Both the position numbers and the translations under genes were made by a program. A DNA stretch of 64,000 nt, taken from assembly GCA_008632985.1 (NCBI GenBank), contig QPGO01000092.1, positions 186,001 to 250,000 of the forward strand, written 5' to 3'. Position 1 is the first letter of the stretch, and each line of letters opens with the position of its first letter. The DNA is from Psammoneis japonica. Its lineage: Eukaryota. The notes beneath the pieces were generated by a model. It worked only from the letters and a program-made list of their open reading frames with translations, searched no databases and was not told the DNA's origin. Below, in pieces: positions 2,531 to 64,000 of the stretch.

Positions 2531-5154
2531 CAGAGTTGGATAAATGCTGTGTGATGATGCTCAGGAAGCGTAAAGACTCATAACCACTCAGAATGCTGTA
2601 CACTACCTAACGAGTACGGGAGGTTCTCAACAACCCAAGAGGCAAAGAAATTACCACTCGGCCAATTGTTGAGTCCCTTCTCCGCACACACATTTAGGCA
2701 TGTGTTGTGCACAGCATCATCACACAGCATTTATCCAACTCTCCCTCTCGTCGCAGGATGGGTCATCGCCATGTGGCGCATCCGCACGGCGGACTTACGA
2801 AATTTTGACCATGCACTCCCTCTGTTGGGCAGGCGGATGGGTCAGCGCCATGTGGCGCATCCGGCCAATGCCAAGGGAGGAGTGGGTTCGAAGCCCAACC
2901 GCCCACCCCGGATGGAGTTGGAAAGGGGCAGGCCGAGAAAGAAAAGGAGGCTTGGATTTGAGGCCGACTCGAGCCAGCGACCTCAGGAAGCGCAAAGACT
3001 CATGGCCACTCAGAATGCTGCACACCACCTGACGAGTGCGGGAGGTTCTCAACAACCCAAGAGGCAAAGAAATTGCCACTCGGCTGGTTGTTGAGTCCCT
3101 TCTCCGCACACACATTTGGGCATGTGTTGTGCACAGCATCATCACACAGCATTCACCCAACTGCTCAGAATGCTGTGCACCACCTGACGAGTGCGGGAGG
3201 TTCTCAACAACCCAAGAGGCAAAGAAATTGCCACTCGGCCAATTGTTGAGTCCCTTCTCCACACACACATTCAGGCATGTGTTGTGCACAGCATCATCAC
3301 ACAGCACTCATCCAACTCTCCCTCTCGTCGCAGGATGGGGTGTCGCCTTGGGGCGCATCCGCACGGCGGACTTACGAAATTTTGACCATGCACTCCCTCT
3401 GATGGGCAGGCGGATGGGTCAGCGCCATGTGGCGCATCCGGCCAATGCCAAGGGAGGAGTGGGTTCGAAGCCCAACCGCCCACCCCGGATGGGGTTGGAA
3501 AGGGGCAGGCCGAGAAAGAAAAGGAGGCTTGGATTTGAGGCCGACTCGAACCAGCGACCTCAGGAAGCGTGAAGACTCATGACCACTCATGATGCTGTGC
3601 ACCGAGTGTGGGAGGTTCTCAACAACCCAAGAGGCAAAGAAATTGCCACTCGGCCAATTGTTGAGTCCCTTCTCCGCACACACATTTGGGCATGTGTTGT
3701 GCACAGCATCATCACACAGCATTTGTCCAACTCTCCCTCTCGTCGCAGGATGGGGTGTCGCCTTGGGGCGCATCCGCACGGCGGACTTACGAAATTTTGA
3801 CCATGCACTCCCTCTGATGGGCAGGCGGATGGGTTGGCGCCATGTGGCGCATCCGGCCAATGCCAAGGGAGGAGTGGGTTACAGCATTCTGAGTGGTTAT
3901 GAGTCTTTACGCTTCCTGAGGTCGCTGGTTCGAGTCGGCCTCAAATCCAAGCCTCCTTTTCTTTCTCGGCCTGCCCCTTTCCAACCCCATCCGGGGTGGG
4001 CGGTTGGGCTTCGAACCCACTCCTCCCTTGGCATTGGCCGGATGCGCCACATGGCGCCAACCCATCCGCCTGCCCATCAGAGGGAGTGCATGGTCAAAAT
4101 TTCGTAAGTCCGCCGTGCGGATGCACCCCAAGGCGACACCCCATCCTGCGACGAGAGGGAGAGTTGGACAAATGCTGTGTGATGATGCTGTGCACAACAC
4201 ATGCCTAAATGTGTGTGCGGAGAAGGGACTCAACAATTGGCCGAGTGGCAATTTCTTTGCCTCTTGGGTTGTTGAGAACCTCCCGCACTCGGTGTGCAGC
4301 ATTGTGAGTGGTCATGAGTCTTTACGCTTCCTGAGGTCGCTGGTTCGAGTCGGCCTCAAATCCAAGCCTCCTTTTCTTTCTCGGCCTGCCCCTTTCCAAC
4401 CCCATCCGGGGTGGGCGGTTGGGCTTCGAACCCACTCCTCCCTTGGCATTGGCCGGATGCGCCACATGGCGCTGACCCATCCGCCTGCCCAACAGAGGGA
4501 GTGCATGGTCAAAATTTCGTAAGTCCGCCGTGCGGATGCGCCACATGGCGACAACCCATCCTGCGACGAGAGGGAGAGTTGGACAAATGCTGTGTGATGA
4601 TGCTGTGCACAACACATGCCCAAATGTGTGTGCGGAGAAGGGACTCAACAACCAGCCGAGTGGCAATTTCTTTGCCTCTTGGGTTGTTGAGAACCTCCCG
4701 CACTCGTCAGGTGGTGTGCAGCATTCTGAGTGGTTGTGAGTCTTTACGCTTCCTGAGGTCGCTGGTTCGAGTCGGCCTCAAATCCAAGCCTCCTTTTCTT
4801 TCTCGGCCTGCCCCTTTCCAACCCCATCCGGGGTGGGCGGTTGGGCTTCGAACCCACTCCTCCCTTGGCATTGGCCGGATGCGCCACATGGCGCTAACCC
4901 ATCCGCCTGCCCATCAGAGGGAGTGCATGGTCAAAATTTCGTAAGTCCGCCGTGCGGATGCGCCCCAAGGCGACACCCCATCCTGCGACGAGAGGGAGAG
5001 TTGGACAAATGCTGTGTGATGATGCTGTGCACAACACATGCCTAAATGTGTGTGCGGAGAAGGGACTCAACAATTAGCCGAGTGGTAATTTCTTTGCCTC
5101 TTGGGTTGTTGAGAACCTCCCGTACTCGTTAGGTAGTGTACAGCATTCTGAGTG
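2531..5154. repeat. ~422-bp unit tandem array arranged as a large inverted repeat (about 3 units forward, then about 3 units reverse)
   Basis: ctcaggaagcg recurs at ~2560, 2982 and 3559 (a 155-bp internal duplication lies at ~3011-3165). Its reverse complement gcttcctgag recurs at 3911, 4326 and 4748. Orientation switches at ~3880. Confidence 0.95.
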
Positions 5155-7898: not shown

Positions 7899-10800
7899 GT
7901 GGAAACTTTGAGCATGTTTGACACATCGATTAGAAGCTTTCAAGAGAGAAGAAGAAGGAGACGGGACACTTACTTTGAGCCAACCGGCAAAGCGCACGCA
8001 AACGCTGCAAAAGCGTTGAAAGAAAACCCCGAGTACGCGAAGTATTCCAGACTGTTAAAAATTGGTATACCTACTGCAATGGTGAAGTTTGAGATTGAGC
8101 GTGATGGAAAAGATCCGTCTATTGTGAACTTGCCGGACAACGGCGTCTCTCCATCTCTTTCCAGGGACGATCAAGATGCAAAGTCGCAACCGGACATCTC
8201 CACTACCCGTAAATCGAGGGAAGCGTCACAACGAGCCAATATATATGAGATTGCAAGTGCATGTCAACAAACGAGGAAAGGTTCTTTAGGAGTTTTTCTT
8301 CAGAAGAAGCGGCCCAGTCTCAGATTTAGGGATCACGAAGTGGTTTCAATGAATGGCTCACTCAATCACCAGCAGGGTAGAAGAGATTCACCGTTACCGA
8401 AACTTGAAGAGGAGAAGCATATAGATGATTCAGACACGTCTGAAACTGCAAGCTTGTCCAACTCGCGAACGAGTATTGGTGACGCGGAAATACATCCAAT
8501 GAAAGAATCACGGTCGTTCGAGAAGGAGAGTATTGGTTGTCATCATAGCGCACACGAGGTAGTCAATGACAAACTGTGGGCTCATCGACAAACCATCATC
8601 GGTGAGAGAAAAAGTTCAACGGAGGCGTCAACCTTCATCGACGTTGCCGGCGATGATAGGCTACGCCGAGAAAACTTCTATAAAGTTGAAGGAAACGAAA
8701 GCTTGACTGAAAGGGTTGGTGGTTTAAGGGAAGTTTTTGTGAAAGCTTCTGACGATGGTAGCGACACAGAGGATTCATGTTCAAGTCTTCCTCAACAGCT
8801 TCTATCATCGTCATTATTGAGCAACGTAATGAATGAAGTGTCTCCAATCGAAGAAACGAACGGACATGAACTTCCTTTACGAGAAGATCCTCGATTCTCC
8901 AAGTATTTTAAAATGCTGAAGACAGGTGTACCGAAAGATGCAGTGAAGCATGCCTTAAAGCGAGACAATAAAGATCCCGGAATCATTGACCTCGACCCCA
9001 ACAAAAGTCATGAGTCCCAATGCAAAGTAGAGGATGCTACGGTCCGCGAAGACGAAGGAAGCAACAATGAGGATCCATACACAGAACTTCTTGAACAGCT
9101 TTTATCGCCGTCAATATCGAGCAGCCTTACCAGAGCGGTTTCTCCAATAGAAGAAAAAAACGGACGTGAAATTCCTCTACGAGAAGATCCTCAGTTCTCC
9201 AAGTATTTTAAAATGCTGAAGACCGGAGTACCGAAAGATGCGGTGAGGCATGCCTTGAAGCTCGACAATAGAGACCCCGGAATCATTGACCTTGACCCCG
9301 AGAAAAGTCATGAATCGCAACGCAAAATGGGAAAGGCTACCACAGGCAATGGCGATGGTAGCTACACGAAGGATCCGTACTCAGAACTCCTGCAACAGAT
9401 CCTAGCACCTTCAACGTCAACCAGTGCCATTAAGGGCACGCCAACGGAAGAAGAAACAAACAGCTGTAAAATTTCTCTGCAAGATGATCCTAAGTTCTCC
9501 AAGTATTTCAAAATGTTGAAGAGGGGTGTACCGAAAGATGCCGTGAGGCACGCGTTACGGCGTGACAACAAAGATCCGGGAGTCATTGACCTCGACCCCT
9601 TCGAAAGTCATGATTTCCAACGCAAATTAGTGGATACAACGGCCTGCGACAACGAAGGAAGCAATCTTGGGCCTCAAACAGCGACAAAATGTAGGCCAAC
9701 AATGGCCCAATGCGAGTCAGAAGTGAAAAGCTTATGTCAAGCTACTCCATCGAGTGAGCCTTCAGTAAACTTGACAACAACAGCCAGACCTTTCCGTCGG
9801 AAAAAGCTATATTGGACACCAATTGACACCAACAAAATTCATAAACGGACTATTTGGGCGCATTGTAGGGCTGATTTCTCCATCGAATCCCTAAAATATG
9901 ACGTTAAGGAGTTCGAACGACTTTTTATGGAAATCAATCGTCCAGCAGCAACGACGAATGCCGTAGGTGGCGGACAACGTCCGTTGATAAAACAGAAGAA
10001 AGGAGATCGATTTATTGATAGCAAGAAAGGGCTGAACGGTGGGATCATTCTCTCGAGGCTCAACATTGAATACTCCAAGCTTGCACACATGATTGATACA
10101 ATGTAAGGACCATTTTGATCGCCACATAATCGTCTTTGTGACCCATTCCGTAACTCACAACATTTATTTCCGCTGCGAAGGGACTACGGAAACCTCAATC
10201 CTATGCAGTTGCAATCAATAAAGAAAATATTGCCATCTTACGATGAAAGAAAGGCACTCTTTGAGTACGTCAGCGTCAACAACGCTTCAGCCGACAAGTT
10301 AGAAATGGCTCTGCACGATTTGAGTGAATGTGAAAAATTCATGGTTGCAATGCTGGATGTGCGTAGGCCGACGGAAAAGCTTGATTGCATGATCTTCCGC
10401 GACACGGTTTACGACCGATTAGATGAACTTGTTATCGCGTTCAACATTGTGCGCCAGGCATGCAATGAAGTCATGTCTTCTATGAGACTTAGGAAACTGT
10501 TCGCAATGATACTCACCGTTGTTAATCATATCAACACCGGTAGCGAGGGACGTTTGGTAGCAGGTTTCAGCTTGGACACTCTGCTAAAGCTTGGACACTC
10601 AAAAGCATTTGACAAGAAAACGACTATTCTTCAGTATCTCGTCAAAGTAACCAAAGAGAATGACGAGTCTTTGCTGTTTGTGAGAAGCGATATAGAATCG
10701 GTAGAGAGAGCATCCAGCATCCAGCTAGACAACCTGAATGCCGATCTCAAGACCCTACGAGATGAGCTTTACGAGGTCCAAAAATTCGTCAGTGACGACG

Positions 10801-19332: not shown

Positions 19333-22300
19333 ATGGGTTGCGGTTCCAGTAGGGACGCGGTCGTCCAAAATCCTCCCAGGAAATCGCCGGAAGGAGTCGA
19401 GGTGACGCTACAAGACTACAAACAACGGGAGCTGTTACTCCCCGAACATGAAAGAAGTGATTGCAACAGGTGCTGTGTGGGATCAAGAAAAGTAGGCATC
19501 AACGATTCAGAGAAAATTCCATCATCGACACGGAGTACTTCATCTGCAAAGTCGAGGAAAGTCTCGTTTCGAGGCATGCTGAAACGTTCACAGTATTCAA
19601 AGCTCAAGAATGAGATCAACGCTGATGTCGTGATGCCCAAGCACAATGGGATTGAGGTTGTTAGATCGTTTGACCTAGAATTCGGGGTCGATGAATATCA
19701 TGCATCCAAGTTTAGAAGAAAGGCTTCGTGTTACGAAGAAATCTTCTGTCCGAACAGAAATACCGTGGGGAAAACACATGCAGATTCTGACTTCGGTTCT
19801 CATCCAAGATCTCGTTGTCTTGAAAGGAAAAATTCTTGGCCCAGAGATGGTCGGCATTATGTGGGAAATAACAATCGGAAGCGGTTGAGGCATTGGAATG
19901 AAAAACGAGCACAGCAATTGCGACCGAGTAAACGAGCGAGGAAGGTCAATGTGAATTTGTCGTTGTTACCCCACGAGGACACTTTAAAATCGCCACCTTT
20001 TCTAACTCGGCTCGATCCGTTCGCATCCATGGAAGTCCTTGTAAGAAAACCAATCAAAATGTCGCTGAAAGCGTGACTTCAATTACGTCGATCACTGACG
20101 ATCCGACCGCATGGAGCACAATTTCTTCAATCGCGATGGAAGACGGGCTTCGAACTCGTCCTGCGACACCATGTAATGAATCGAACAAAAAGTCGACAAA
20201 TGACGGCCTGATGAAGATGCTTCTGGAGTACCAGACGATGCAAATATCAATACCGATTCTCTTGAAAGCGAGAAGACTGCGTGCCAAGAGTCTGCAGATG
20301 AGTCATCAAATGACGTAGATCCCAGACTGAAGGATGATCCCGAGTTTTCCAAATACTTCAAAATGATGAAGGTGGGCATGCCTAAGGAGGTTGCCGCTCA
20401 CGCCATGCAGCGAGACGGTAAGGATCCAGGCATACTTGATCTCGATCCTGAGAAGAGTCTCGTATCGCAACGTGCTGAGTCAAATCAAAGGAAATAACGG
20501 ACGATGGCGGTCCCCCGTTGAAGGAAGATCCCGAGTTTGCCAAATACTTCAAAATGATGAAAGTCGGCATGCCGAAGGAAGTTGCAGCCCATGCCATGCA
20601 ACGAGACGGTAAGGACCCGAGCATACTGAATCTCGATCCCGAGAAGAGTCTCGAATCGCAGCGTGTGGAAAGCAATTCAAAAGCGAGCACGGAAGATGAC
20701 GGGCCACCGTTGAAAGAAGACCCGGAATTCGTCAAATACTTCAAAATGATGAAAGTTGGCATGCCGAAGGAGGTTGCAGCTCACGCCATGCAGCGAGACG
20801 GTAAGGACCCGAGTGTACTTGATCTCGACCCGGATAAGAGTCTTAAATCTCAATTGGGGAAAGCAATTCGAAGGAGTGCAAGGAAGAGGACGGACCCCCG
20901 TTGAAGGATGATCCTGAGTTCTCCAAATACTTTAAAATGATGAGAGTTGGGATGCCGAAGGAGGTTGCAGCTCACGCCATGCAACGAGATGGCAAGGACC
21001 CAACAGTACTTGAGCTCGACCCTGTGAAGAGTTTAAAGTCGCAGCGCGTTGAATGCAATTCCAAGGAGAGCAAGGAAGATGATGGACCTCCGTTGAAAGA
21101 CGATCCTGATTTCATCAAATATTTTAAAATGATGAAAGTTGGCATGCCGAAAGAGGTTGTCGCTCACGCTATGCAACGAGACAGCAGGGATCCGAGCATA
21201 CTTGATCTCGATCATGAGAAGAGCTTTAAGTCGCAGACTGTGCAAGTCAAAAAGGCAGCTCCGAAGGAAGAAAAGAAGAAGGTTCGCCGAAAGAAGATAT
21301 TCTGGACACCCATCTCAGAAGAAAGAATCAATGACAATTCAATATGGTCGATGTGCCGTGGATGCTTCGGAATGGACACTTTGAAGTATGACGCAGAAGA
21401 ATTCAACATGCTGTTTACTGAAACTTCCGATCCTTCAGAAAAGAAGATCGAGTCTAGTGGCAAGATGAAACAGCAGAAAGTGAAAATCCAGCTCATTGAC
21501 GGAAAACGGGGAATGAACGGGGGCATCATTTTGGCTCGCATAAAAATTGAGTACTCGAAGTTGGCACAGATGGTCGACACAATGTAAGATATCACTTTCC
21601 TGCTGTTTCAACTCGTTTCTTTCTATCTATCTTATTGGTGCTCTTCTTTGGTTGTCTTTTGAATTGTAGGGAACCTGGAGAGCTCGACTCGACTCAGTTG
21701 CGCGCTTTAAAGGAATACCTCCCAACGGACGAAGAACGAAATTCTCTCAATGGCTTTTTGACTGGGGGCGGCTCTCCTCGACAGGATGGCTTGAGCGAAT
21801 GTGAAAATACATGATGGAAATGTTAAAGGTGAAGAATCCTGCTGCGAAATTCGACTGCATGCTGTTTCGCAGTCAGTTTACCCCTAGATTGGACGATATC
21901 AAGAATTCGATAGAAATCGTGGACAGGGCTTGTGACGAGGTGAAATCATCTGAGAAGCTACGAGGCATGATGGCAATTATTTTGACTGTGGTCAATCACA
22001 TAAACACAGGGGGGCAGGGCCACGGAAATGTTGCCGCGGGCTTCGGCCTTGATGCATTGCTTAAGCTTCAAGAAGCGAAAGCTTTCGATAGAAAGACTAG
22101 TGTTCTCGAATACCTCGTGAAACTTGTGAAAGAAAACAACGAGTCCCTGCTAGAATTTAAGGATGAAATCGATTCGATCTCTGACGCCAGTACAGTGCAA
22201 CTCGACAGCCTAGAGAATGATTGCACGACTCTTCGTGGTGAACTTTCCGACGTTGAGAAAACCACCACAGAAGAAGCCGATCGCATTCAACAAGAGATAT

Positions 22301-25158
22301 CTGAAGTCGAGCGAGAGAGTTCGAGATTAACTGAAAACATCGGGCTCACGCTTGGTAGCAATTCAGACCATGGTAGGACTCCCATGGAGACTTTCGTCAT
22401 TCTAGCTTCACTTTCAATGGCGGAAACCGAAGCACAGTTGGACGCGCTGAAGGGAAAATATGGCAGTCTCCTGCAATACTTCGGAGAGGATGAGAGCATG
22501 CAGACTACAGACTTTTTTGGGACGATCCATAGATTTGTGTTGGCCTTCAGTGTATCTGTTGAAGAAGTGGGAAGAAGGAGCGAGCAAAGGTAGGTTTTTT
22601 ATATCTCTTTGATTGTTATCACGTCAGAACAGCGCCTCATTTTTTCCCGTGTTTTCTACTGTTAAGCTCAAGGAAAAGTTTAAGTCCGCTGCTCGGAAAG
22701 TAAGCGTTGCAAGAAAGATGGCGAAAAATCATTGGAAGAACAGTCCAAAAATGAACGAGCGAAAAGGGGCGGACACAAAAGATCCAGCTCAGTTACTTGG
22801 ATCGATTGGACAGGTCACGGCTGAGAAAGCTCGGGCCCGTAGTGCCACCAGAAAGGAAGAGGCTTCGATCAGTCGACGTGATATTGCAGCAGCTGCAGCT
22901 CAAGACGCGCTTGGAGCGAAAAAGAATACCCAGGCATCGAGAGAAGCAAGTGGATCTGATGATAATGCCACTGCGGCAGCACAGACTATCGCCGAAAGGT
23001 TCAGTGATAACAGCCAAGAGAGATCTTTCATTGTAGAAACTAAAGTGCAAGATCGACAAGCTGAGAATGCAAACAAGCCAACAACTGTTGTTGATGCAAA
23101 AAGGCCTCCCACAGTTATCCAGAATCCAATCGTCGGTCAGGGCGGAATAGCCGCAGCAGCTGCTGCTGCAGCAGCGGCGCGGCGACTCAAAAATAAGAAT
23201 TGTACAGTGGTTCAAGCGAAATCACTATCAGTTGGGACTTTTGGTGATTCTGTTGTTGTAGATCGAACAAGTGTTGATCCTGTTGATGTTGACGCTGCAA
23301 TGCCAGGCTCATCTTCGAGCTCTGTGAATGGAAAGGTGATATAGCTGCCGCATCGGCCCTCCCTGCAGACAAAAAGGAGGGAGCCATGGTTGCAGCAAAG
23401 TCAATGTCAGTTGGATCCTTTGGTGGCGACACCGTTGTCTTCGATCAGACCAGGGATGCATCCTCTGGTGATAAAATGTCTACTTGTGGAATTCCCTCTA
23501 TCGCGCACGATGGAAAGGCAGCTCCCTTAAGCAATATTGGTATTGCGGCCGCTGCAGCCGCCGCGGCAAGAAGGCGTGTTTCTGCTACTGGTAACTCAGC
23601 GACTGACAAGGTCGGTATTGCCGCTGCAGCAGCTGCCGCAGCTGCTCTTCGATCTAGAGGGAAGCATTCTGTCACAGATGAGGCGGATCTCGCCCATGCG
23701 AATATCGCGCCAGTGCAGCACAAACGTGGTGCTTCTATTGGCGTTGGTATTGCTGCGGCTGCGGCGGCCGCAGCTAGAAGTCGTCACGCCTCTGAGGCAA
23801 GAATGACTGCGAAGCTGGTATTGGTGTCATTGCTGAATCAGCGGCAGCGGCGGCAGCAAAGCGTGCCACTGCGGCAAGGAACCGCGTTAATGTTACTGAA
23901 AACTCAGTGACTGGCAGAGGCGGTATTTTTGCTGCAGCAGCTGCCGCCGCTGCGCTTCGATCTAAAGGGGAACATTCTGTCACTAGTGAGATTGGTGTCG
24001 TCCAGACGAATAGAATTCCCGTTCAGCAGAAGCGTGGTGCTCCTAATGACCTTGGTATTGCTGCGGCGGCGGCGCGGCGGCCGCAGCTAGGAATCGTTGC
24101 GCCTCTTTTGGCAAGAATGGCTCCGTTGATACTGTTTCTGTCACGGACAACTCAGTGACCGGCAGAGGCAGCATTGCCGCCGCAGCAGCTGCTGCCGCCA
24201 ATGCGCGTCGATCTAAAGAAGAGGGCCCTGCCACCACTGACACGGATCTCGCGCAGACAAATAGTACACCAGTGCAACAGAACCGTGGTGCTCCTGCTGA
24301 CGTTGGTATTGCCGCAAGGAATCCTCACGCGTCGGTTGACAAGAAAGACTCCGCACTTGGTGTTGCTGGCATTGCAGAGGCAGGCGAGGCGGTAGCAGCA
24401 AAGCCCAAAGTCGAGAGCGCAGTAGTATGTGCAGAAGAAGCATCCACTCATCAACCTGGAACAAGTGCCGCTTGGGTGGGTAAGAAAGCTTTTGTGACAA
24501 TGGAAGAACCCCTTCGCTCGGAAGAATTGATATTGCTTCGGCTGCTGCTTTTGCTGCTAGGAATCGCCAGTCGTCTACTAACGTGGGCCTCGCAGCTGCG
24601 AAAACGTCACGATCCCAGAAAAGTGTTGAAGTTGCTTCCGCGGCCGCTGAAGAAGCTCGGACTCGTGCCTCTCCCATGGGTGGGATTGCAGCAGCAGCCG
24701 CGGCAGCTGCTGCAATGCGTGTGAGAAAGGCTCAATCCTCTGTCGATCAATCGCAAGGCTCGAAAGAAGACGCAAAAACTTCTGTGGCGGCCGCTGCTGC
24801 TTTGGCTGCTGCGTTGAAGAGGCGCGAGGAAGCTCACGATGTATCAGTTGCAGCAGCGAACAGTCCGTTGCCTTGCATAGATTCTTCCAAAGATGCAGCA
24901 GCTGCTGCTTCCGAGGCTAGGCTTGGCGAAGCCGTTGAAGTGGCCGCGGTTGCTGCCAAGACTGCACCTGATCTCACGCACGAGTCATCAAAAGCAGTTG
25001 CTGCTATGACTGCGGCAGCTCGTCAACAGGAAGCTGCTTCTTTGGCGCAAGCGGCCCTGAAAAATTCGGCGCGCAGAGATCCCGTAAATGCCAAGGCTGC
25101 TGTCGCACCGCAGAACGAAGCCGTGGCGGTAGTTGCGGCTTCTTTGGAGGCTTCGTGA
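19333..25158 (+). CDS. Second formin paralogue: MGCGSS N-terminus, five CCDC53-like repeats, FH2 domain, long poly-Ala repeat tail (frameshifted in this assembly)
   Basis: LKxDPEFxKYFKMMKVGMPKEVAAHAMQRDGKDP at ~20328, 20518, 20710, 20901 and 21092. FH2 motifs RRKKIFWTPI, GFGLDALLKL and DFFGTIHRF. Intron 21584-21669 is at the same position as in the first formin. Linkage of the N- and C-terminal ORFs is inferred. Confidence 0.78.
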
Positions 25159-42300: not shown

Positions 42301-44866
42301 TCGTAATTGGCATCAACATCTCTGACAGTGATGAAGAGCTTACCGATCGAGGCAGGAATGGTGACGGACGCACTCAAACGATTCCATTTCGTCTTGTCCC
42401 ACAATGAATTGTAGGCGTCAGAATGTATGCGCTCAAACAACACCATTCTTTTCGGACCTAACGCATCGTTGCCAACAATGCGAAGTGAAGGACAGGCCAT
42501 TGTAACTGCAGAAGAGGAAACATCACACCATGCTGTTGCCATGTTGTAAAAGAGAAGTTGTGAGACTGAATCATGATATTTGTTCAAGCCAAGAAAGCGT
42601 CGGAGTACTTACCAGCGGTATTGGTGCCTTTATCGAACAACTTTAGATCAACGCTGAATTCAAAAGTGCTGCCGGGTTCAAAGCATTGCAGATCGATCCA
42701 CCTATTTGCCTGGTATGCTAGACCATCGCTGGCCGCCTTTCGGTTCGATAGTCGTATAGATTTTGCACCATTAGCAACAAAATTCTGGATAATGCCTGAG
42801 CCGGCGGCCTTCCAGAAGCCTTGGTAACCCCGCTGTGAACTTGAGTTTAGAACAAGTTCCTTGCTGCAATCGTTTTGCTTTTCTCGGACAACGACATCGT
42901 CAATGACGATGCCTTGACCGCTCCCAATTCCTAGGAAACTTATGCGGAAGCTGCTCTTTGGATTTGCGTATGTAGCGTCAGCCGTAAACGTCCCATACAT
43001 TTCAAACCAACTAGAATTCTCAGACGGCCCTGCAGACACCGCGATTGTTCGGAACTTGTTTTTGTTGTCAAGGGAAACCCGTAAGATAAGCTTTGGGCTG
43101 CCGAAAGAGTAGAAAAGGCGATCAATTAGCCATAAGTTTCAAAAATGATGAGGCTCCGATTTCGACATCGAGTAACGCGTTTTACGACGATGTAGGTCTG
43201 ACTCACCAGTTTGTACTACAGTCGATCTTGGCTCCGTCAGTTCCAAGCAACCTGTACTTTAGTGATGCCTGGTTTGAAAAAAAGGGGAATAGGGGTAAGA
43301 AGAGAAAGGCCCTTCAGCTGCACATGTGACTCGGCGGGACCAGAATAGTCTCACCTCGTATTGTTTTCCTGCTTGAAAGCAACCTCCTTTTATGTTTTGC
43401 ATTGGGTTACCAGTCCTTGCTTCCAGTGCTGATCCACTGGCGCCTGGAATGAGCCGAAGATCGTCACCTTTTGGATTACTCCAAGGGAAAACAGACCTTC
43501 CATTAAAGCCTCCATTGTGCACAAGATTTGAGCAGTCGTTGTTGCTTGGAGGGGCAGGTGCGGGTTGAGGTTGAGATGTAGTGACCGAAGGATTCGGCTT
43601 TTCAACGACGGCCCCCTTTGTCCGAAGCATGATGTCGTCAATCTCTAGAATCACGCCCGGGCTGGGCCCTTCCAATGAAAGTGTGAGATAACGATTGTCG
43701 CTGGCAAGCTCTCCGCCCCAAGTTTGAAAGGTCCAGAACTTGAATGTCGTGGAAATTGTCCTCCACCTCCCGTACCTCCAATCTTCTTCCTTTGATTCTT
43801 TGTACTTGTCTTGACCAAAGATGATGTTGGACGCTGTCTTGAAGCTCGTCTTCACAACAACGCATCCCTCACCGATCGAGGCACATTCGGTGGGAGTATT
43901 CGGAGAGACCCCTGGTTTCCTGAGACGGATCCGTGCCACAAATAGATACTCTTCCCCTGCTAGAAGACAAGGATATGAGTTTTTGAGATTTATCGCAAGA
44001 CCTTGAGTGCTGCTGGTGCGACCATAAACGGCAACGTAACCCCTCCTGCGAAACCCTATCTTATGCGTAAAGGCAGAGAAAACTTTTTCGTCTCTTTGGT
44101 AACGCTTGTATGGCACGATCGAAGCAGGATTTTCGAATGCGTCGTTGAAAATCACTCCACTTTCGGGACACCCCGGTGGCAATACAGCAAGATTCTGCGC
44201 AACGAGGCAAAGAGAACAATAGTAGGATTAAAACTTCATACTTCGTATAAAGGTTGAATGATTGACAGAGTGTTTGGCTTACTCTAGTGGATTTGGATTC
44301 TGTCAAACGAAGGACACCTTCGTTTGCTTCGAAGTAACCTTGATCGAAAACTCTCACGTCGGGTGTTATAATCTTTGTTTTCGTGCCAGGTGGAAAGACC
44401 TGACGATGACAAAGAATTTTGGTGAGAGAAATATCAGGAGGAACACATACATCTGTGGTTCAATCGAGTCTGCGTATACAAAGTTTCTCACCAATTTCCC
44501 CTTTACATGCAGACCTCCTTTCAAAGTAATATTTTGTTCGCCAGTAAGATCGAATTGAATGCATTTCCCGCATTCAATCACAATCTTATTGGCATAAAAG
44601 TGATCCTTTCCCACATATGTCGACCAAGGCGTTGTGCAAGTTTGATTCTTGAGATTTATTTGATGGGGACATTCATCACGTGCCTCACTCTGCTTGATCT
44701 TGAACCGTCTCCCTTTCCGCGTTGAGGCGGAAAAAATCATCGGAGTCTGCGATTCCTCATTCTTAAAATTGATTTGACGTTGACCATCATTGTTTTGAGT
44801 GTCACTCCTTACAACGATGATATGAAGCAACAAGAGAAGCGACAACGAGAGAGACTTGAGCATCAT
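36330..44866 (-). CDS. Very large secreted protein: G8-like and carbohydrate-binding-like modules, Pro/Thr linker, DUF1800 and DUF1501 domains (multi-exon)
   Basis: Signal MMLKSLSLSLLLLL. DUF1800 motifs DQLRQRMAWALSQI, DENFAREIMQLFT and IREPLLR. DUF1501 motifs LDGGCDSFNMLVP, WDHH, SDFGRT and GTDHGWG. Collinear minus-strand ORFs separated by intron-sized gaps. Confidence 0.8.
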
Positions 44867-45089
44867 TGCGTCGTGTGATGTTGTGAAACCTGCGGAACTC
44901 GATTCGTCGTCGGTAGCAACAATCGCTTCGCTTCTTGGGCTTGCAGCTCCAAGTCTATTGAGTCTTTGCACATGAAAAAAGTCATAAGTACTTTAAAGCA
45001 GGGAGGCGAAGCCGATAGAAGTTCTCAATAGACATGTCTGAGACACACATCTTTTCGCCGTTGTGGTCGGATTTGTGACGGTGATTTGA

Positions 45090-47890
45090 TCAAATCCCGT
45101 TTTTGAAAAATCCCTGCAACCGCGTCCAAAACCAGAACCACGACTGAAACCAATGGAAACGTGACTGACGGCCAGGCCGTTGGGGATGACGGAAAGATAG
45201 AAGCAAGATCATGCCTGGCATGAGATTGGCGGCGTCATCGTTGATTGTGCAGCAGAGCGCAGCAGTGAGTTGGTGCCTGCGGCAGTTTGGAGGCAGCAGG
45301 GCCCAGCAAGTGAGAGCTTGCATTTTGTTGTGTGTCAGGCAAATGGCTGCTGACTCACAACTTTTGTCTCAACTTTAACCACCTCTCCTTTCCCCATCAG
45401 CTTCAGCCACTTCTGGCAGCAGTGCTTGGATCTTTGCCTCAAGCACAGCACTTCTGCAGCAAGGTTGGTGCACATGCCTTGCCGGGGCAGCTGGGTCACT
45501 CATTTTGACAAGGCAGTCGTTTCTCAGGTGTTTGTGCTGCAGCCCAACTTGTTCACATTTGCTGGGTCAGGGGGTCCTGGCAGAGGCCCTTCAAGTTAGT
45601 CAGGTGGCTGAAAATTTGACTTCGTCAACCCTTTGTTGCAAAATGCTTTCCCACTGCACTCATGACTTCTTGCCAAGCAGAGGAGCTGGGAAAGAGACAG
45701 TTGGATGCCATCTCACCCTGTGGCAACAAACAGGGTTTTGCACTCAGTTTTCAGGGGTTCTTCAAGCAAAAACACAAAAACTTGGTCAAAAGGATTCTTG
45801 TGGCTTTCCCACTCTTGCTCTTGACATGGCAGAAAGCTCCTCATTTGTCTGCTGCAGTGTGGGCTTTTACAAGCACTTGGATGGTCTTGACAAAGAAGCA
45901 CTTGGGCCAAATGGGATGACTCAAATTGACTGGCACTGAGCTTGGAGTCACAGCGAACAAAGCCCATTGACCCTGGAGAGTGTTTGGTCAAAGAGATCAG
46001 TGCTTTTGGGTGTCAGGTGCTTGGGTGCAAAGCAACAGGCATGGGTGTTGCAACACCTGCTCACTTGCAGCTGTTGTGCCCAGCCCACACACCACAATGG
46101 GTGTGTGCTTCACCATGTGAGGGAGGAGTGCTGGGAGGGTTGCAAGCAGGTTAGAAGGGTTCACAGCTTTGCCAGAGCCTCTGCAGCTGCTGCCTCAACA
46201 CACATGGTCAGATTGCCACGGGAGCTCTGGCTGTCATCCAGACTGGCATGGGCTGCAACACAAAGAGAACATGATGTCAACAGGGCTGTGACACAAAAGG
46301 TTGCTGCCAAAATGTTTGGACTTGATGCAAACTCACACCAGAGGCAGCACAATTGGAGCTGGAACAATTGCACTCAACACATCATTGCTGGGGTCACAAG
46401 TGCCAGTCAAAGTGCTGCATCATCATCTGCACAGAGTGCAGCATGAGATGGGACCCTGTTTCTTTGGGTTGTTGTGCCACAATGGCACAAAAACTGGAAG
46501 GTGCAGCATTGACAACAAAGTGCTCTGAAGATGCCAGTTGCAAGCAGATTCTCTTGTTGATCCCAAGTGACAAACACTCTCACCCATGGTTGCCACCCTC
46601 TGACATGGGCCTGACTGATGCATTGCTCAAATGCTCAATGGATGGCTGCTCAACAGGTGTTGGAGAGATGTTCCTCAAGTGCCAAAAAGGTTGCTCATGA
46701 ATGTTGCTGCTGGAGTGTTTTGGCCAGATGCAAATGCATCAAGGGTGGCACACTCAGCTTCAAGGCACAGAACAGCACTGCTGCATTGCTGGGGTTGCAA
46801 ACCAGTCACAGAGCAAGACATCCACAAAGAGCACACACTCAGTTTCAAGGGTGCACCACTGCACTGCTGGGGCCCACACATCACATGAAATGAGCTGCCT
46901 TGCTCTTGAGAGGTTGAAGCACCATGGCAGCAGCATGCAAGGGCCAGAAGATGCAGTGTTGACAACAAAGAAAATGAAAAGATGCAAGTTGTGAGCAGAC
47001 TTTCTCATTCTCAACCACAATTAAAAGACACACGCAACAGTCACAAACCTCACTCCGGCTGCTGTCACTTGCTCAAACACTCAAAAACGGACATCATTCC
47101 AGTGGAAATGAGACACGCACTCCATCATCGTCAGGGCAATCGATGATTTTGCTGTGACTGGACTTTGTTGTGGTCTGCTTTTTGAGTGGTGGTTTGCACG
47201 GCAAGAATGAAATCAATTGCAGTGGCAAACACATGCCAGTCTCAGTTTTGAGGGTGCACCGTCACACAGAGGGGGCAGAAGATGCAGTGTTGACAACAAA
47301 GACAATCTAAAGATGCAAATTGTGAGCAGACTCTTTCATTGAGCACAATTAAAAAACATGCACAACAGTCACGAACCTCACTCTGACTGCTGTCACTTGC
47401 TCAAACACTTGAAAAATGGACGTCATTTTGCAGTGGAAATGAGACAGCCACTCCATCATCGTCAGGGTCATCCATGATTTTGCTGTGACTGGAATTTGTT
47501 GTGGTCTGCTTTTTGAATGGCTTGCTTGACAAGAATGAAATCAATTGCAGTGGCAAACACACACCAGTCTCAGTTTTGAGGGTGCATTGTCACACTGCTG
47601 GGGTCCACCCAGGGCATGAAATGAGCTGGCCCCTCTCTTGAGAGGTTGCAGCCAGCACAACAGCACGAAAGAGCCAGAAGATGCAGTGTTGCCAACGAAG
47701 ACAATCGAAAGATGCAAATTGTGAGCAGATTCTCTCATCGATCGCAATTGACAAACGTGCGCAACGGTTACGAACGTCCGACTGCTGTCGCTCGCTCAAA
47801 CACTCAACGGACATCATTGCAGCGGAAATGAGACACTCCGTCAAAGTCAAGGGCCATCCGGCCGTGATTCGGCTCGTGACGAGAATTTAG
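45090..47890. mobile_element. Degenerate TpA- and CpG-depleted repeat/transposon remnant
   Basis: Non-genic interval between two genes with extreme dinucleotide skew and a terminal tandem repeat. No intact ORF. Confidence 0.6.
46836..47890 (+). repeat. Three diverged tandem copies of a ~330-400-bp unit
   Basis: cagaagatgcagtgttg...agatgcaa.ttgtgagcaga...gctcaaacact...ggaaatgagaca at ~46945, 47276 and 47675. Confidence 0.9.
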
Positions 47891-59766: not shown

Positions 59767-60502
59767 GATGGCAAGGATGACATGGTCAAGTCGACAGATA
59801 CAGTATACAGTCGATAGCTCGTTACACGTCTAACTTTCGTCCCATCTCCCATCCCATGACCCATGATTTCAGTGTCATTGTGTCGTACAAAATGGTTGGA
59901 GAAGGTGTACAAACCAATCAACTCCCGCAGCTTTTTACTGTCTGTGCACGATCGCGACCCCCAGACCCCGACGACACTCCACAACAACAACAAATGGCAA
60001 ACGTCTCGGTCCATCACGTCCTCACTCCCTTCCTTCTTTTTTGCTCTGTCCTTGACAGAAAAGCTGTCCACACGTCATTTGCAATGTGCCTTGACAACAA
60101 GAGATGCTGAGGAGCTCCAACTGACTGACGACATGAAACTCGGTGGCAAGCTGGTTTTGGAGACGGGGACATCTGGCAGCTGTGCGGGGCAATCCCATCT
60201 TTGTCAAAACAAATTCATCTCATTTTTTCTCAAAACAACATTGGCCCTATTGGCATCGGGTGTGCCTGTGTGCAAGGCACTGAAGGACAACACGACCTTC
60301 GTGCGCCACACAGATCTCGAGCTTGAGGAAAATGTTTGAGTTGACAATGAGAGTTCAAAGCACACCTGAGAGTTGCTGGAGGAAAATCAAATTCCAAGGT
60401 GTTTGCATCTTTGTTGAACTGACACCAGAGATGATGGAGCAGAGGACAAGATTGACAAAGGTGCTGCCCGGAACAAATCAGTTGTTGAAACCTCACATGG
60501 AC

Positions 60503-61608
60503 GCGCTCCAGCTCCAGGTGGGACCTCGCAGCACTGAACTGTGACATCAATGGTTTTTTGGATCGCACCATGTGTCGCGCACGCAGATGGCTGCGTGTGA
60601 CATTCTATGAAATTGTTTCATGCTTCCCATTTTGCGAAGCCAAAGGCTTTCTATTTTCAACATTTATGACAATGAAAATGCTCTGGGTGTGTTCTTCAAT
60701 GTCTGTAGAATGTGCCCATGTAAACTGTTGTTCATGTGCTGCAAGTGTGAAGGAGGAGACACGTTCGTAAAATTGCCTCTTTTTCTGATGGCCATCATGT
60801 GCATTTTTGTTGATCAACAATTTCAACGCAGAGCTCTCACGCAGAATTCTGCGGGCCCAATGTCACACGGAGTCCCACCTGGGATTGGAACCCGTCCACA
60901 GATCTGCAGAGAAGCCTCGCTGGAAGCCAAGGTGCCAAAGCGGTGGATTGGGGGGAACCTTGCCCAGAGCAAAGCAATTCAACCAGTTGGGCTTGGCACA
61001 AATTACATTGGTGATGAAGGTGCCAGAGTCATTTCCAAGTGCTTTGTTGAGAACAAAGCAGCTTTGTGCTCACACTTCTCTGCAGCAACCAAATCGGGGA
61101 TGAAGGAGCAAAAGCCATTGGACAGATGCTGCAAAAAAGAGTTGCATGCTGAGGGATCACAACACTCATGAGAATCAGTTTGGCAGTTCTGGGAAGATGG
61201 CGTCAGTGCAAGAGTTGAAGGAAACTGTGGTTTCCCGTGCTTGGTTGATGGGGAACAACGTTGGGCAGGAACTTGCATCTGAAATCAAGGGCTGATGCGT
61301 TCCAGCTCTAGGTGGGTCCTCGCAGCACTGAACTGTGACATCAACAGTTTTTTGGATCGCGCCGCATGTCGCGCACGTAGATGGCTGCGTGTGACATTCT
61401 ACGAAATTGTTTCATGCTGCCCATTTTGCGAAGCCAAAGGCTTTCTATTTTCAACATTTGTGACAATGAATTTGCGCTGGGTGTGTTCTTTGATGTCTGG
61501 AGAATGTGCCCATGCAAACTGCTGTTCATGTGCTGCAAGTGTGAAGGAGGAGATGCGTTTTTAAAATTGCCTCTTTTTCTGTTGGCGATCATGTGCATTT
61601 TTGTTGAT
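60503..61608 (+). repeat. ~310-bp direct repeat pair (60503-60814 and 61297-61608)
   Basis: tccagctc.aggtggg.cctcgcagcactgaactgtgacatcaa...atcatgtgcatttttgttgat is present twice. Confidence 0.93.
60960..61150 (+). pseudogene. Fragment of RNI-type leucine-rich repeats
   Basis: LGLGTNYIGDEGARVISKC and, in another frame, LCSNQIGDEGAKAIGQMLQ match the LxLxxNxIGDEGAxxL consensus. Confidence 0.65.
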
Positions 61609-64000
61609 TAAGGTTCCGAATGGACCTGCAACCCGGACATGCTCCATGCAAAAATGCAGCAGCGCTGCGTGGAGGGGAATGCGTTGGAATCTACACCAAC
61701 ATGCCACAGTTCTCAAAAATCATGAAAATCTCAGAATGCGTGCAAATGACAATGGCGTTTGCAGCGCTGTGTCGACAGCGCTCCTTCACCTTCCACCCAA
61801 TCTCAAGTGGTGTTGGATGGACAACGCAGCGATGCACTTGATTCTGAAGCATGGTGGCCATCCGTCACTCCCCCTTTGTGATGTGGAGAATGCAATGCGT
61901 GGGAAGCGTGATGCCACCGCGACGGAACGGGACCGATTCAACACCCTCGGTGCTCATCACACTTGCTGCAAGTTTGGATTTCGAGAAAATGGTTGCAAAT
62001 GTTACAAAGAACAGCGTGATTCATTCGTCACCATTCCAAGGATTGCGCCAAACTGCTTCATTCAGAACAAGACGCTGTTTCAAGATGCGCACAACGCATT
62101 GGAGAATGCCGGTTACACTCGCGCCCCGGACAAAAAGAGTTTGGAGACAGAAGACACCGAATCCAAGACAAGTGCATCAAAGATCAGTGGCTCTAGTTTC
62201 AATCATGATGTGGAGAAGGGTGGCAGCTCTCCTGAAACTCGGCACAACAGTGGCAGCATCGGTTCCAGTGCCAGTGCAGACGACAACAAAGAAAATTTCG
62301 CGTTGGACTCGTCATTTGACAACATGACCAGCTGCAAGAAGTCTAGCATCAAAATGGATGACAAGTGGATGAAAGACATGTTCAATCACAATCGAAAGTG
62401 CGGTCATGATGCGAGCTTGGTGGCTAGAACTAATCTCTCATTCGGCTTGAAAGAAGTTTGGCGTTGCTCGTTTTGTCGGAAGGAAATGGTGTGGTGGCCG
62501 GCGGAACAAGTGAAGCAACCATCAGGCCAACTTGTGTCAGAAGATTTGGTTCTTGTTGTGTTGGCTTCCATTGATGCTGGAGTCTCCAGAGAGAAACTGC
62601 AGGAGCTTTGTGCAGGGTTTGGTGGGGTGTGCCCGCCGAAATCTGCAATCGACGAGCAATTCAAATGCATTGAGAAGGTTGGGCTAGCTGTGGTGAAGGA
62701 ACAACTACTTCAGAATCGCAGAGAGCATGTGGAAGAAAGCAGGAAGCAGCGACATTGTGAGGGCGACTTTGAGTTTGCCAATCAAGACAGCAAGCATCAC
62801 AGTTTCGCAACGGGACCGACAAACAATGATGGTGGCGGACCGATGCAATGGATCTGCCATCGAGTCAAAGGTGTGCTTCATTGCTTGGTCTGCATTGGCT
62901 TGGTGACAGGCAAGCCACTTGCCACAATTGTAGATCAAATCAGCTGTGGTGCTTGTTCCCGTGTTGTCCCCATGTGTCTAAAAACCATCCTGAAAAGCAA
63001 CATGGCGACATTCGTCCCGGCGAGATTGATTTCTCGCATGATGGCTCGTGTTCTCGGAACTCGAAGTACGGCCCCGGGGTGGCAGAAGAGCATGCCAACG
63101 TCAAACTTGCAAGAGAGCTGCTGTTGGACGATGACGGTGCCTTCCGGTCCGATGATGTGGGCATTGTGCCCCGTGAGATAACTTCAGATGGGGACACAAG
63201 AAGCATCGTTGCATTTGTAAAAGAGCAGCGTGACATGGTCGGAGATGCTGCTGAGGGATTTTCGCAGCAGCTGCCTGATGGTGGGCACATGACAAAGATG
63301 GTGAAAGGCGGCTGCTTCACATTGGCATCAAAGAACCCTGAGTTCAAAAAGGGTCTTTCGACTCCACGGACAGAGGCCATTGTGTCAGATTATTCTCGAC
63401 GCATGTCCCTGCATCATCACGTGCTTCTGATTGTCGAGAATCGACAGCAACATGTCAGGCACAGCAAAGATGCACAAGAGACCATGGAACAAAAGTGCAA
63501 GAGACTTCTCTGGTTATTTTCATTCAAGCACCAGCAAGACAAGGCAAGAGAAAGATGCTTGAACGGCCTCCAGTCAATTGTTCCTCACCACTGTGGAGAC
63601 CATAGATTGTGCAATTTGCGCAACTGCAAGCACCTTCAAGCAGAGCGATGAGTTCATGTGAGAGCAGAACTAGACAAAGCTGCGCCCCTGGCAAAAGGCG
63701 ACTTCAACAAGCAGGTTTGGGAGCTCTGTCAAAAAGAGGCTCGGTTTCACGGAGCGACGATGAAGGTGTCCAACAAAGGAAAGAAAGTTCTGACTAAAGT
63801 TGTCACTTCAAGAGCAAATGAGTCCAACATTGATCGGGTTGCACGGCTGAGTGATGGAAATGGAGTCAAGAATTTTTTTGCCTTTGTGAACAAGTGGACG
63901 GAAGGAAAGTGGATGTGCTTTGGGCAATCGGACACATTCACATTTCTCTGTTGCTGTGTCGCAGCACGAGCTGGAAACAGAGAATTCACAACCAAGGTTT
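61601..64000 (+). pseudogene. Mutated DDE transposase resembling the Pfam 'Mutator-like transposase' family
   Basis: Ordered motifs CSFC, VLASIDAGV..EKL..LCAGFG, NDGG, CIGLVTGKPL...SCGAC, CSRN...GVAEE, TSDGDT, DGGHMTK and HHCGDHRLC resemble DG..TGK..CxxC..CxxN..GDGD..HxxK..HxxGxHxxC. Frameshifted. Confidence 0.65.

What the first reader, a model, noticed from the sequence alone, without database searches (positions are those of the whole stretch)
45090..47890. TpA and CpG both collapse to CA/TG, but over different extents
In 46153-47021 I find no TA and a single CG, and only about 5 CG in 45301-47000. The flanks (45061-45300 and 47690-47880) are CG-rich yet still TA-poor. The 422-bp array and the 60-64 kb element are TA-poor but CG-rich. 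CG methylation of TEs (DNMT5) is established in diatoms and would explain the CpG decay. Inference: TpA loss is faster or earlier and separable from 5mC deamination, so the three regions may be successive ages of one silencing trajectory.
Basis: partly seen in the sequence, partly recalled or inferred. Interest (0 to 1): 0.7.

Follow-up and report, generated by a model that had tools for sequence, protein, structure and literature searches.

The report
Two mutation clocks erase diatom transposons
In this diatom, transposon DNA loses most of its TA steps to TG or CA early and its CG steps much more slowly, which likely reflects a targeted DNA adenine-editing defence acting beside ordinary methylation decay, a process our literature searches found reported only in one unrelated alga.

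Summary
Observation confirmed: 46153-47021 has 0 TA and 1 CG, against about 54 of each in shuffles. The island 45030-47887 is a decayed repeat containing a Copia-related relic. Comparing copies across the genome shows TA→TG/CA is a real, directional mutation: one copy pair differs at 90 of 113 TA but 14 of 109 CG, with no reverse change. It prefers TAY, hits both strands equally, and has turned conserved Tyr into Cys/His. Of 380 sampled 1-kb bins, 151 are TA-depleted, 53 of these CG-retaining. But the CG-rich flanks reflect position (a 150-200 bp edge lag), not age. The closest precedent is TpA hypermutation in Bigelowiella natans (bioRxiv 2026); I found no diatom report. The enzyme is unproven; an ADAT/TadA-type deaminase is likeliest. 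The scan had already found this process on other DNA of this genome.

The parts
45030..47887 (.). TA-erased repeat island between two genes; 9 TA left, none in the RTAY context
   Evidence: HMM segmentation; counts
45030..45300 (.). left edge: TA gone, CG kept
   Evidence: 45061-45300: CG 15, TA 1
45301..47000 (.). core: TA and CG both erased (4 TA, 5 CG), CA/TG about twofold enriched
45593..46191 (-). decayed relic related to the 5' (gag-like) region of a Copia-type LTR retrotransposon family
   Evidence: profile of 30 family copies, E 7e-15 in the window; family member on C130 carries gag_pre-integrs and RVT_2; first match
46928..47890 (+). three degenerate tandem units (76-86% alike); the outermost keeps CGs that the inner two lost
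47690..47887 (.). right edge (third unit): TA nearly gone, CG kept
2532..5154 (.). comparison region: 422-bp direct/inverted array, TA-depleted in its interior (2797-4889), CG mildly depleted
61608..64000 (+). comparison region: young Mutator-like DNA transposon (runs on beyond the window), TA mostly lost, CG mostly kept
   Evidence: PF20700 hit on the 95% identical copy L054
47923..49095 (-). flanking host gene (putative rRNA methylase family), normal TA and CG

Best explanation
Transposon DNA in this diatom loses TpA quickly through TA-to-TG/CA transitions, likely made by a host DNA adenine deaminase, and loses CpG slowly, likely through ordinary 5-methylcytosine decay. Shown: the TA changes are directional, almost purely transitions, strand-symmetric, favour the A of TAY, affect class I and class II elements, and spare neighbouring genes. 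They are far advanced before background divergence reaches 1%. Inferred: an ADAT2/TadA-fold enzyme is recruited to silenced repeat chromatin and turns A into inosine, which replication fixes as G; repeated independent hits erase Tyr and TAA/TAG codons and wreck the element. In the same domains DNMT5-type CG methylation (inferred) drives slower C-to-T decay that fades over the outer 150-200 bp next to genes. The island at 45.0-47.9 kb is an old end state of both processes; its CG-rich rims are the edge lag.
For: Direction: L061 vs L060 (94.9% alike), 90 of 113 TA became 47 CA + 43 TG; CA/TG to TA 0 of 375; CG lost 14 of 109; other transitions <=0.7%. Two edited copies disagree CA vs TG at 34 of 81 sites where the intact copy has TA. 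Among 18 Copia copies, 44 columns show TA, CA and TG together. At conserved Tyr columns, 120 outside RT homologues have Y 1058, H 24, C 9, other 183, while the copy from this genome has 0 of 9 Tyr (4 Cys, 5 His). Purity: 563 transitions vs 14 transversions at 1419 TA strand-sites; TT to CT only 64 of 2489. Motif: RTAY survives 1 of 107, YTAR 32 of 59; fitted +1 pyrimidine 1.85-1.94 vs A 0.44, G 0.64. TAC is the preferred motif of TadA-derived editors (PMC8065034, passages). DNA level: a DNA transposon is hit on both strands (fraction 0.51) and edits are partly inherited between copies (27 same vs 7 opposite). Two clocks. Edge lag: CG o/e 0.83, 0.50, 0.27 in the first three 100-bp bins vs 0.41, 0.19, 0.17 for artificial sharp junctions. 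Precedent: bioRxiv 10.64898/2026.01.13.699255. Candidate genes present: ADAT2-like, TadA-like and two A_deamin loci; DNMT5-like gene.
Against: No enzyme is tied to the process. The deaminases found look like housekeeping tRNA or nucleotide enzymes, no chromatin-reader domain was seen in the ORFs scanned, and no extra TadA-family paralogue turned up beyond a deaminase-dioxygenase fusion. There is no strand coordination (351 of 685 same-strand neighbours vs 343.6 expected, p 0.30), unlike processive deamination on exposed single strands. An endonuclease V gene that could remove inosine is present. Sequence alone cannot tell A-to-G from T-to-C chemistry. TA and CG loss do co-vary across copies (rho 0.65; 0.33), so they share targeting or age. 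The 48 pairs were chosen for an intact query and a depleted subject, so their ~80% TA loss is partly by construction. 5mC was not measured.
Confidence: 0.6

Rival explanations
1. A modified thymine (for example 5-hydroxymethyl- or 5-formyluracil) is placed at RTA in repeats and mispairs with G, giving T-to-C.
For: The spectrum reads equally well as T-to-C at RTA; pure transitions. A deaminase fused to a 2OG-Fe(II) dioxygenase exists in the genome.
Against: No TET/JBP match in the genome (0 candidates; absence not proven). The fusion's dioxygenase resembles small-molecule IPNS-like enzymes (atlas score 0.78, a lead only).
Confidence: 0.12
2. Adenine is first methylated (6mA) at TAY in repeats and then deaminated or miscopied, a RIP-like methylate-then-mutate route.
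For: It would explain the strict motif and repeat targeting, by analogy with fungal RIP (recalled).
Against: Not tested: no adenine-methyltransferase search was run. Known eukaryotic 6mA is mostly at ApT (recalled), whereas TAC is edited as readily as TAT.
Confidence: 0.12
3. Error-prone repair (polymerase eta type) started at deaminated methyl-CpG mutates nearby TA, so one process causes both losses.
For: Both losses fall in the same domains and co-vary across copies.
Against: TA loss far exceeds and precedes CG loss. Editing is no higher within 30 bp of a decayed CpG (166 of 222 vs 183 of 256, p 0.47). AA sites are near background and transversions are rare, unlike the WA spectrum of polymerase eta (recalled). 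No strand-coordinated tracts.
Confidence: 0.08
4. A-to-I editing of element RNA before reverse transcription (ADAR-like) writes the changes into new copies.
For: Two A_deamin (ADAR/ADAT1-family) loci exist; many targets are retroelements.
Against: A DNA transposon with no RNA intermediate is hit equally on both strands; some copies are edited over only part of their length.
Confidence: 0.03
5. Low TpA is a by-product of CpG decay, of the elements' native composition, or of sequencing error.
For: TpA o/e falls arithmetically when CpG decays (recalled).
Against: Complete in-silico CpG decay moves TA o/e only from 0.55 to 0.45. Intact copies of the same elements have TA o/e about 0.6. Distant Copia loci from other samples show CG loss with TA largely intact. 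Public-run contigs carry the same letters (not independent), and edited states are shared between copies.
Confidence: 0.02

Closest known systems
TpA hypermutation of integrated viral DNA in Bigelowiella natans (Mettrop et al., bioRxiv 10.64898/2026.01.13.699255; parts 1-3 of 5 read, supplements not seen)
   Same: TpA to TpG/CpA only, both strands, confined to foreign or mobile DNA; TpA-depleted, CpA+TpG-enriched genome windows with TE domains; adenosine deaminase (ADAT2) proposed but unproven.
   Different: Rhizarian there, diatom here. There it was measured de novo in two viral insertions with moderate depletion (Rho 0.45); here it is inferred from copies, near-saturating, on Copia, Plavaka-like and Mutator elements, in about 40% of sampled bins. 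The main text has no mention of CpG, flanking context or diatoms, so the TAY motif, the slower CpG clock and the edge lag are not described there.
DNMT5-dependent CG methylation of TEs in diatoms (PMC9998398, passages)
   Same: TE islands are CG-methylated in an otherwise unmethylated genome; a Tudor-DNMT-SNF2 gene is present here; CG-to-TG/CA decay shows little flanking preference.
   Different: It explains only the CG clock. The paper has no occurrence of 'adenine' or 'depleted'.
Repeat-induced point mutation (RIP) of fungi (recalled; listings only)
   Same: Repeat-restricted, dinucleotide-specific transition hypermutation that inactivates TEs.
   Different: Opposite chemistry and direction: RIP makes TA from CA/TG; here CA/TG to TA was 0 of 375. 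Near-identical dispersed copies can be unedited, and no strand coordination was seen.
TadA-derived adenine base editors (PMC8065034, passages)
   Same: A-to-G on DNA with a preferred TAC motif, attributed to the parent TadA.
   Different: Engineered and guide-targeted; here the process is natural and the enzyme unknown.

Membership tests
Bigelowiella-type TpA hypermutation | Changes are almost only TpA to TpG/CpA transitions | tested here: met
   563 transitions vs 14 transversions at TA; 90 of 113 TA changed, 0 of 375 reverse
Bigelowiella-type TpA hypermutation | Both strands hit, at DNA level | tested here: met
   47 CA / 43 TG in a DNA transposon; strand fraction 0.51
Bigelowiella-type TpA hypermutation | Confined to foreign or mobile DNA, genes spared | tested here: met
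   bimodal TA o/e; TE domains in depleted blocks; some depleted ORFs carry host-type domains
Bigelowiella-type TpA hypermutation | About 1000-fold raised de novo rate, on in only some lines | not testable with these tools
   needs mutation accumulation; TA editing 69% at 0.2% background divergence is compatible (includes inherited edits)
Bigelowiella-type TpA hypermutation | Integrated viral DNA is a target | not tested
   no NCLDV or virophage insertion was sought
DNA adenine deamination by ADAT2/TadA fold | Enzyme shown to deaminate dA in the target DNA | not testable with these tools
   candidates present; motif resembles TadA; no activity data
5mC-driven CpG decay (DNMT5) | CG to TG/CA transitions in repeats, rising with age | tested here: met
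   6%, 11%, 34% across divergence classes, rho 0.66
5mC-driven CpG decay (DNMT5) | 5mC present at these CGs | not testable with these tools
   no methylation data; DNMT5-like architecture on C76
Fungal RIP | C-to-T at CpA producing TpA excess | tested here: not met
   TpA is erased; CA/TG to TA 0 of 375, 3 of 1352 in the closest pairs
Copia-type LTR retrotransposon (island core) | Homology to a family carrying gag_pre-integrs and RVT_2 | tested here: met
   about 600 bp at E 7e-15; family domains
Copia-type LTR retrotransposon (island core) | LTR pair, pol domains and target-site duplication in the island itself | tested here: not met
   no Pfam hit in six frames; only a relic, so it is filed as Copia-related, not as an element

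The most novel reading that the evidence does not exclude
Diatoms carry a natural, chromatin-guided DNA adenine deaminase genome defence, a reverse RIP that rewrites TAY in every class of transposon soon after insertion, ahead of and independently of methyl-CpG decay. It is shared across SAR lineages with Bigelowiella, and the two decay rates together give a two-hand clock for dating insertions.
Probability: 0.45. Interest if true: 0.85.

Novelty: new member of a known kind. Interest (0 to 1): 0.62.

Why it matters
A genome-defence mutator acting on adenine has one preprint as precedent, in a rhizarian, with no enzyme proven. A diatom case covering about 40% of sampled DNA extends it to stramenopiles and shows that transposons of both classes are routine targets. 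It supplies a sequence motif (TAY) to screen candidate enzymes against, and diatoms have knock-out tools. A natural DNA adenine deaminase would matter for base editing. In practice, TE dating, ORF calling (TAA/TAG stops vanish) and repeat annotation in such genomes are biased unless TA and CG sites are modelled apart.

Tried and rejected
Pfam on six frames of the island and of 60-64 kb with stops as X: 0 families in 12 of 12 frames. Rfam on 44-49 kb: none. Genome DNA searches with the island found only a 77-bp outside match, and a protein search with the + frame found only itself; the coding strand later proved to be minus. Homologue search with the Mutator transposase: 1 hit at 33%, useless for breadth. 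Metagenome scan with a Copia pol: 6 loci at 28-33% identity, GC 31-37%, not identifiable as diatoms; the 5 profiled show CG loss with TA largely intact. Tyr signature in 120 outside RT homologues: none as erased as this genome's copy; called proteins favour intact copies, so this is no test of absence in other diatoms. No RNA holder listed. Strand-coordinated tracts: not found. Link between TA editing and nearby CpG or decayed CpG: not found. An apparent CG-first region on C160 still has few RTAY sites, so it is not a clean CG-only class. TET/JBP: no match. Atlas search on the deaminase-dioxygenase fusion: only generic 2OG oxygenases below 0.9. Neighbouring depleted DNA did not obviously predict TA count in Copia copies (by eye). 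Literature searches gave no diatom report; most subscription papers are not in the library, and the preprint's supplements were not seen.

Full report
Observation. The counts are as stated: 0 TA and 1 CG in 46153-47021; 5 CG and 4 TA in 45301-47000; flanks with 15 and 19 CG but 1 TA each. Shuffles expect about 54 of each in the core, and none of 59 genic windows of that size has fewer than 14 TA. The array and the 60-64 kb block are TA-poor (o/e 0.04-0.18; 0.13) and mildly CG-poor (0.55-0.76; 0.65), not CG-rich. Contigs of a public run carry the same letters over 43500-47231 (possibly the source of the assembly).

What the island is. The window is G000:C93:186001-250000. All named homologues of one host gene among the 120 listed are pennate diatoms. 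An HMM on TA occurrence delimits the island as 45030-47887, between ordinary ORFs. It has no Pfam or Rfam hit and no close genomic copy was found (these searches skip common words). A sensitive local search found a relative on C130, a Copia-type element with gag_pre-integrs and RVT_2. A profile of 30 of the 69 genomic matches to its N-terminal protein hits 45593-46191 on the minus strand at E 7e-15. The right third is three degenerate tandem units. It is an old repeat relic.

Genome-wide pattern. Over 264 kb of C93, 98 of 264 1-kb bins have TA o/e below 0.2, and no bin with TA>=0.3 has CG below 0.5. In 38 stretches of 10 kb taken at fixed positions of other contigs (not a random sample; 2 of 40 asked did not exist), 151 of 380 bins are TA-depleted; 78 of these have CG<0.35 and 53 have CG>=0.5; only 4 of 205 TA-normal bins have CG<0.5. 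The depleted blocks hold Copia, integrase-bearing, Plavaka-like and Mutator sequences and some host-type genes.

Direction and spectrum. Intact copies exist. L061 and L059 (99.4% alike) share 112 of 113 TA. L060 (94.9%) has changed 90 of the 113 to 47 CA and 43 TG, lost 14 of 109 CG, gained no TA from 375 CA/TG strand-sites, and shows other transitions at or below 0.7%. L060 and L062 disagree CA versus TG at 34 of 81 doubly edited sites, as expected for independent hits on an ancestral TA. In the Copia family 44 columns show all three states among 18 copies. An outside check agrees: at conserved Tyr columns, 120 homologous RTs have Tyr 1058 times, His 24, Cys 9, other 183, but this genome's copy has 4 Cys and 5 His at 9 of 9. 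Pooled pairs give 563 transitions and 14 transversions at TA, with TT near background. RTAY survives 1 of 107 times and YTAR 32 of 59; a competing-strand fit over 812 observations (472 distinct sites, 32 pairs) gives about a 3-4-fold preference for a pyrimidine 3' of the A. None of the island's 9 surviving TA is RTAY. Hits are strand-symmetric and not strand-coordinated. Related Mutator copies share many edited states (27 same, 7 opposite), so edits are inherited DNA changes.

Two clocks. In 28 Copia copies (two distant ones dropped), those under 0.5% background divergence have 383 of 554 TA-type sites edited and 78 of 1289 CG lost; at 0.5-2%, 77% and 11%; above 2%, 78% and 34% (TA-type sites include edits inherited from progenitors). 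The 48 intact-to-depleted pairs agree (279 of 361 TA and 69 of 379 CG below 2% background), though they were selected on TA content. The losses co-vary (rho 0.65), as two processes in the same domains would. Complete CpG decay alone lowers TA o/e only from 0.55 to 0.45, and editing is no higher near decayed CpGs.

Flanks are position, not age. Of 17 aligned CG in the outer tandem unit, 13 are CA/TG in the middle unit and 9 in the inner one, although all three lie in one island. Across 31 edges of old domains CG o/e runs 0.83, 0.50, 0.27 over the first 300 bp before a plateau near 0.15, while TA is already at 0.03-0.10. Artificial sharp junctions give 0.41, 0.19, 0.17 (149 cases), so the lag is real, about 150-200 bp. 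Different elements represent ages; rim against core does not.

Mechanism. Shown: a fast, TAY-biased, transition-only, double-strand process restricted to repeat domains, and a slower CG process with little context preference. Inferred: adenine deamination to inosine by an ADAT2/TadA-fold enzyme (about 0.6), since TAC is the preferred motif of TadA-derived editors (PMC8065034, passages) and the same proposal was made for Bigelowiella. The genome has an ADAT2-like gene, a TadA-like gene, two A_deamin genes and a deaminase-dioxygenase fusion (the assignments rest on motifs and my knowledge), but none is linked to the process. It also has endonuclease V and no TET/JBP match. The CG clock is attributed to DNMT5-type methylation: TE methylation by DNMT5 is established in Phaeodactylum (PMC9998398, passages) and a Tudor, DNMT, SNF2 arrangement lies on C76; methylation was not measured. 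Rivals are a modified thymine, a 6mA route (untested), error-prone repair, RNA editing and artefact, in falling order.

Known context and novelty. The preprint on Bigelowiella natans (bioRxiv 10.64898/2026.01.13.699255; parts 1-3 of 5 read, supplements not seen) reports de novo TpA-to-TpG/CpA hypermutation of integrated viruses and TpA-depleted TE-like genes. Its main text does not mention CpG, flanking context or diatoms. Eight searches aimed at a diatom or wider report found no other; passages of PMC3145265, PMC4504042 and PMC3239186 added nothing on it. Earlier notes of this scan describe the same process on other pieces of this genome; they were consulted after the analysis and are not independent support. 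I rate this a new member of a known, barely characterised kind. What this finding adds is the tested separation from CpG decay, the order of the two losses, the TAY motif and the edge lag. Interest 0.62.

Noticed in passing
L108:310-1785 (-) (G000:C79, about 87.3-88.9 kb): TadA-like deaminase domain fused in one frame to a DIOX_N/2OG-Fe(II) dioxygenase; probably a small-molecule enzyme, kept as a lead.
   Followed up: partly
L149 (C40) and L150/L151 (C79): Two separate A_deamin (ADAT1/ADAR-family) genes; the second is an unexplained paralogue and a candidate editor.
   Followed up: partly
L118-L120, L124, L134 (C297, C301); L116 (C78): Several C5 DNA methylase ORFs lie inside TA-depleted repeat domains and are themselves edited, suggesting mobile-element-borne methylases; 27 PF00145 matches in all.
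   Followed up: no
L121 (C34): Chromodomain ORF directly upstream of a DNA methylase domain, like the chromo-DNMT4 forms mentioned in PMC9998398.
   Followed up: no
window 60494-60902 and 61294-61609: The '60-64 kb element' is composite: two copies of a high-copy ~400-bp repeat, which elsewhere abuts Copia internal sequence (likely an LTR), lie before a Mutator element starting near 61608.
   Followed up: partly
L054:2930-7228, L056:4032-6331, L058:5322-6674: Mutator copies edited over only part of their length, with the intact end next to TA-normal DNA; suggests spreading from neighbouring silenced DNA, but some edits are inherited.
   Followed up: partly
L054:3156-4355 (+): A second 400-aa ORF convergent with the Mutator transposase, no Pfam hit.
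   Followed up: no
L034:8071-9393, L085:3227-4591: Host-type genes (ABC transporter, alpha/beta hydrolase) inside depleted domains have 0% Tyr: captured or duplicated genes are edited too.
   Followed up: no
L091:4001-10000 (C160:54-60 kb): Region with strong CG loss but TA o/e 0.15-0.9; surviving TA are seldom in RTAY context.
   Followed up: partly
window 8751-9650, 20285-21236, 23557-24404: Tandem repeats of 68-83% identity in gene-like DNA keep normal TA, so repetition alone at this identity does not trigger editing.
   Followed up: partly
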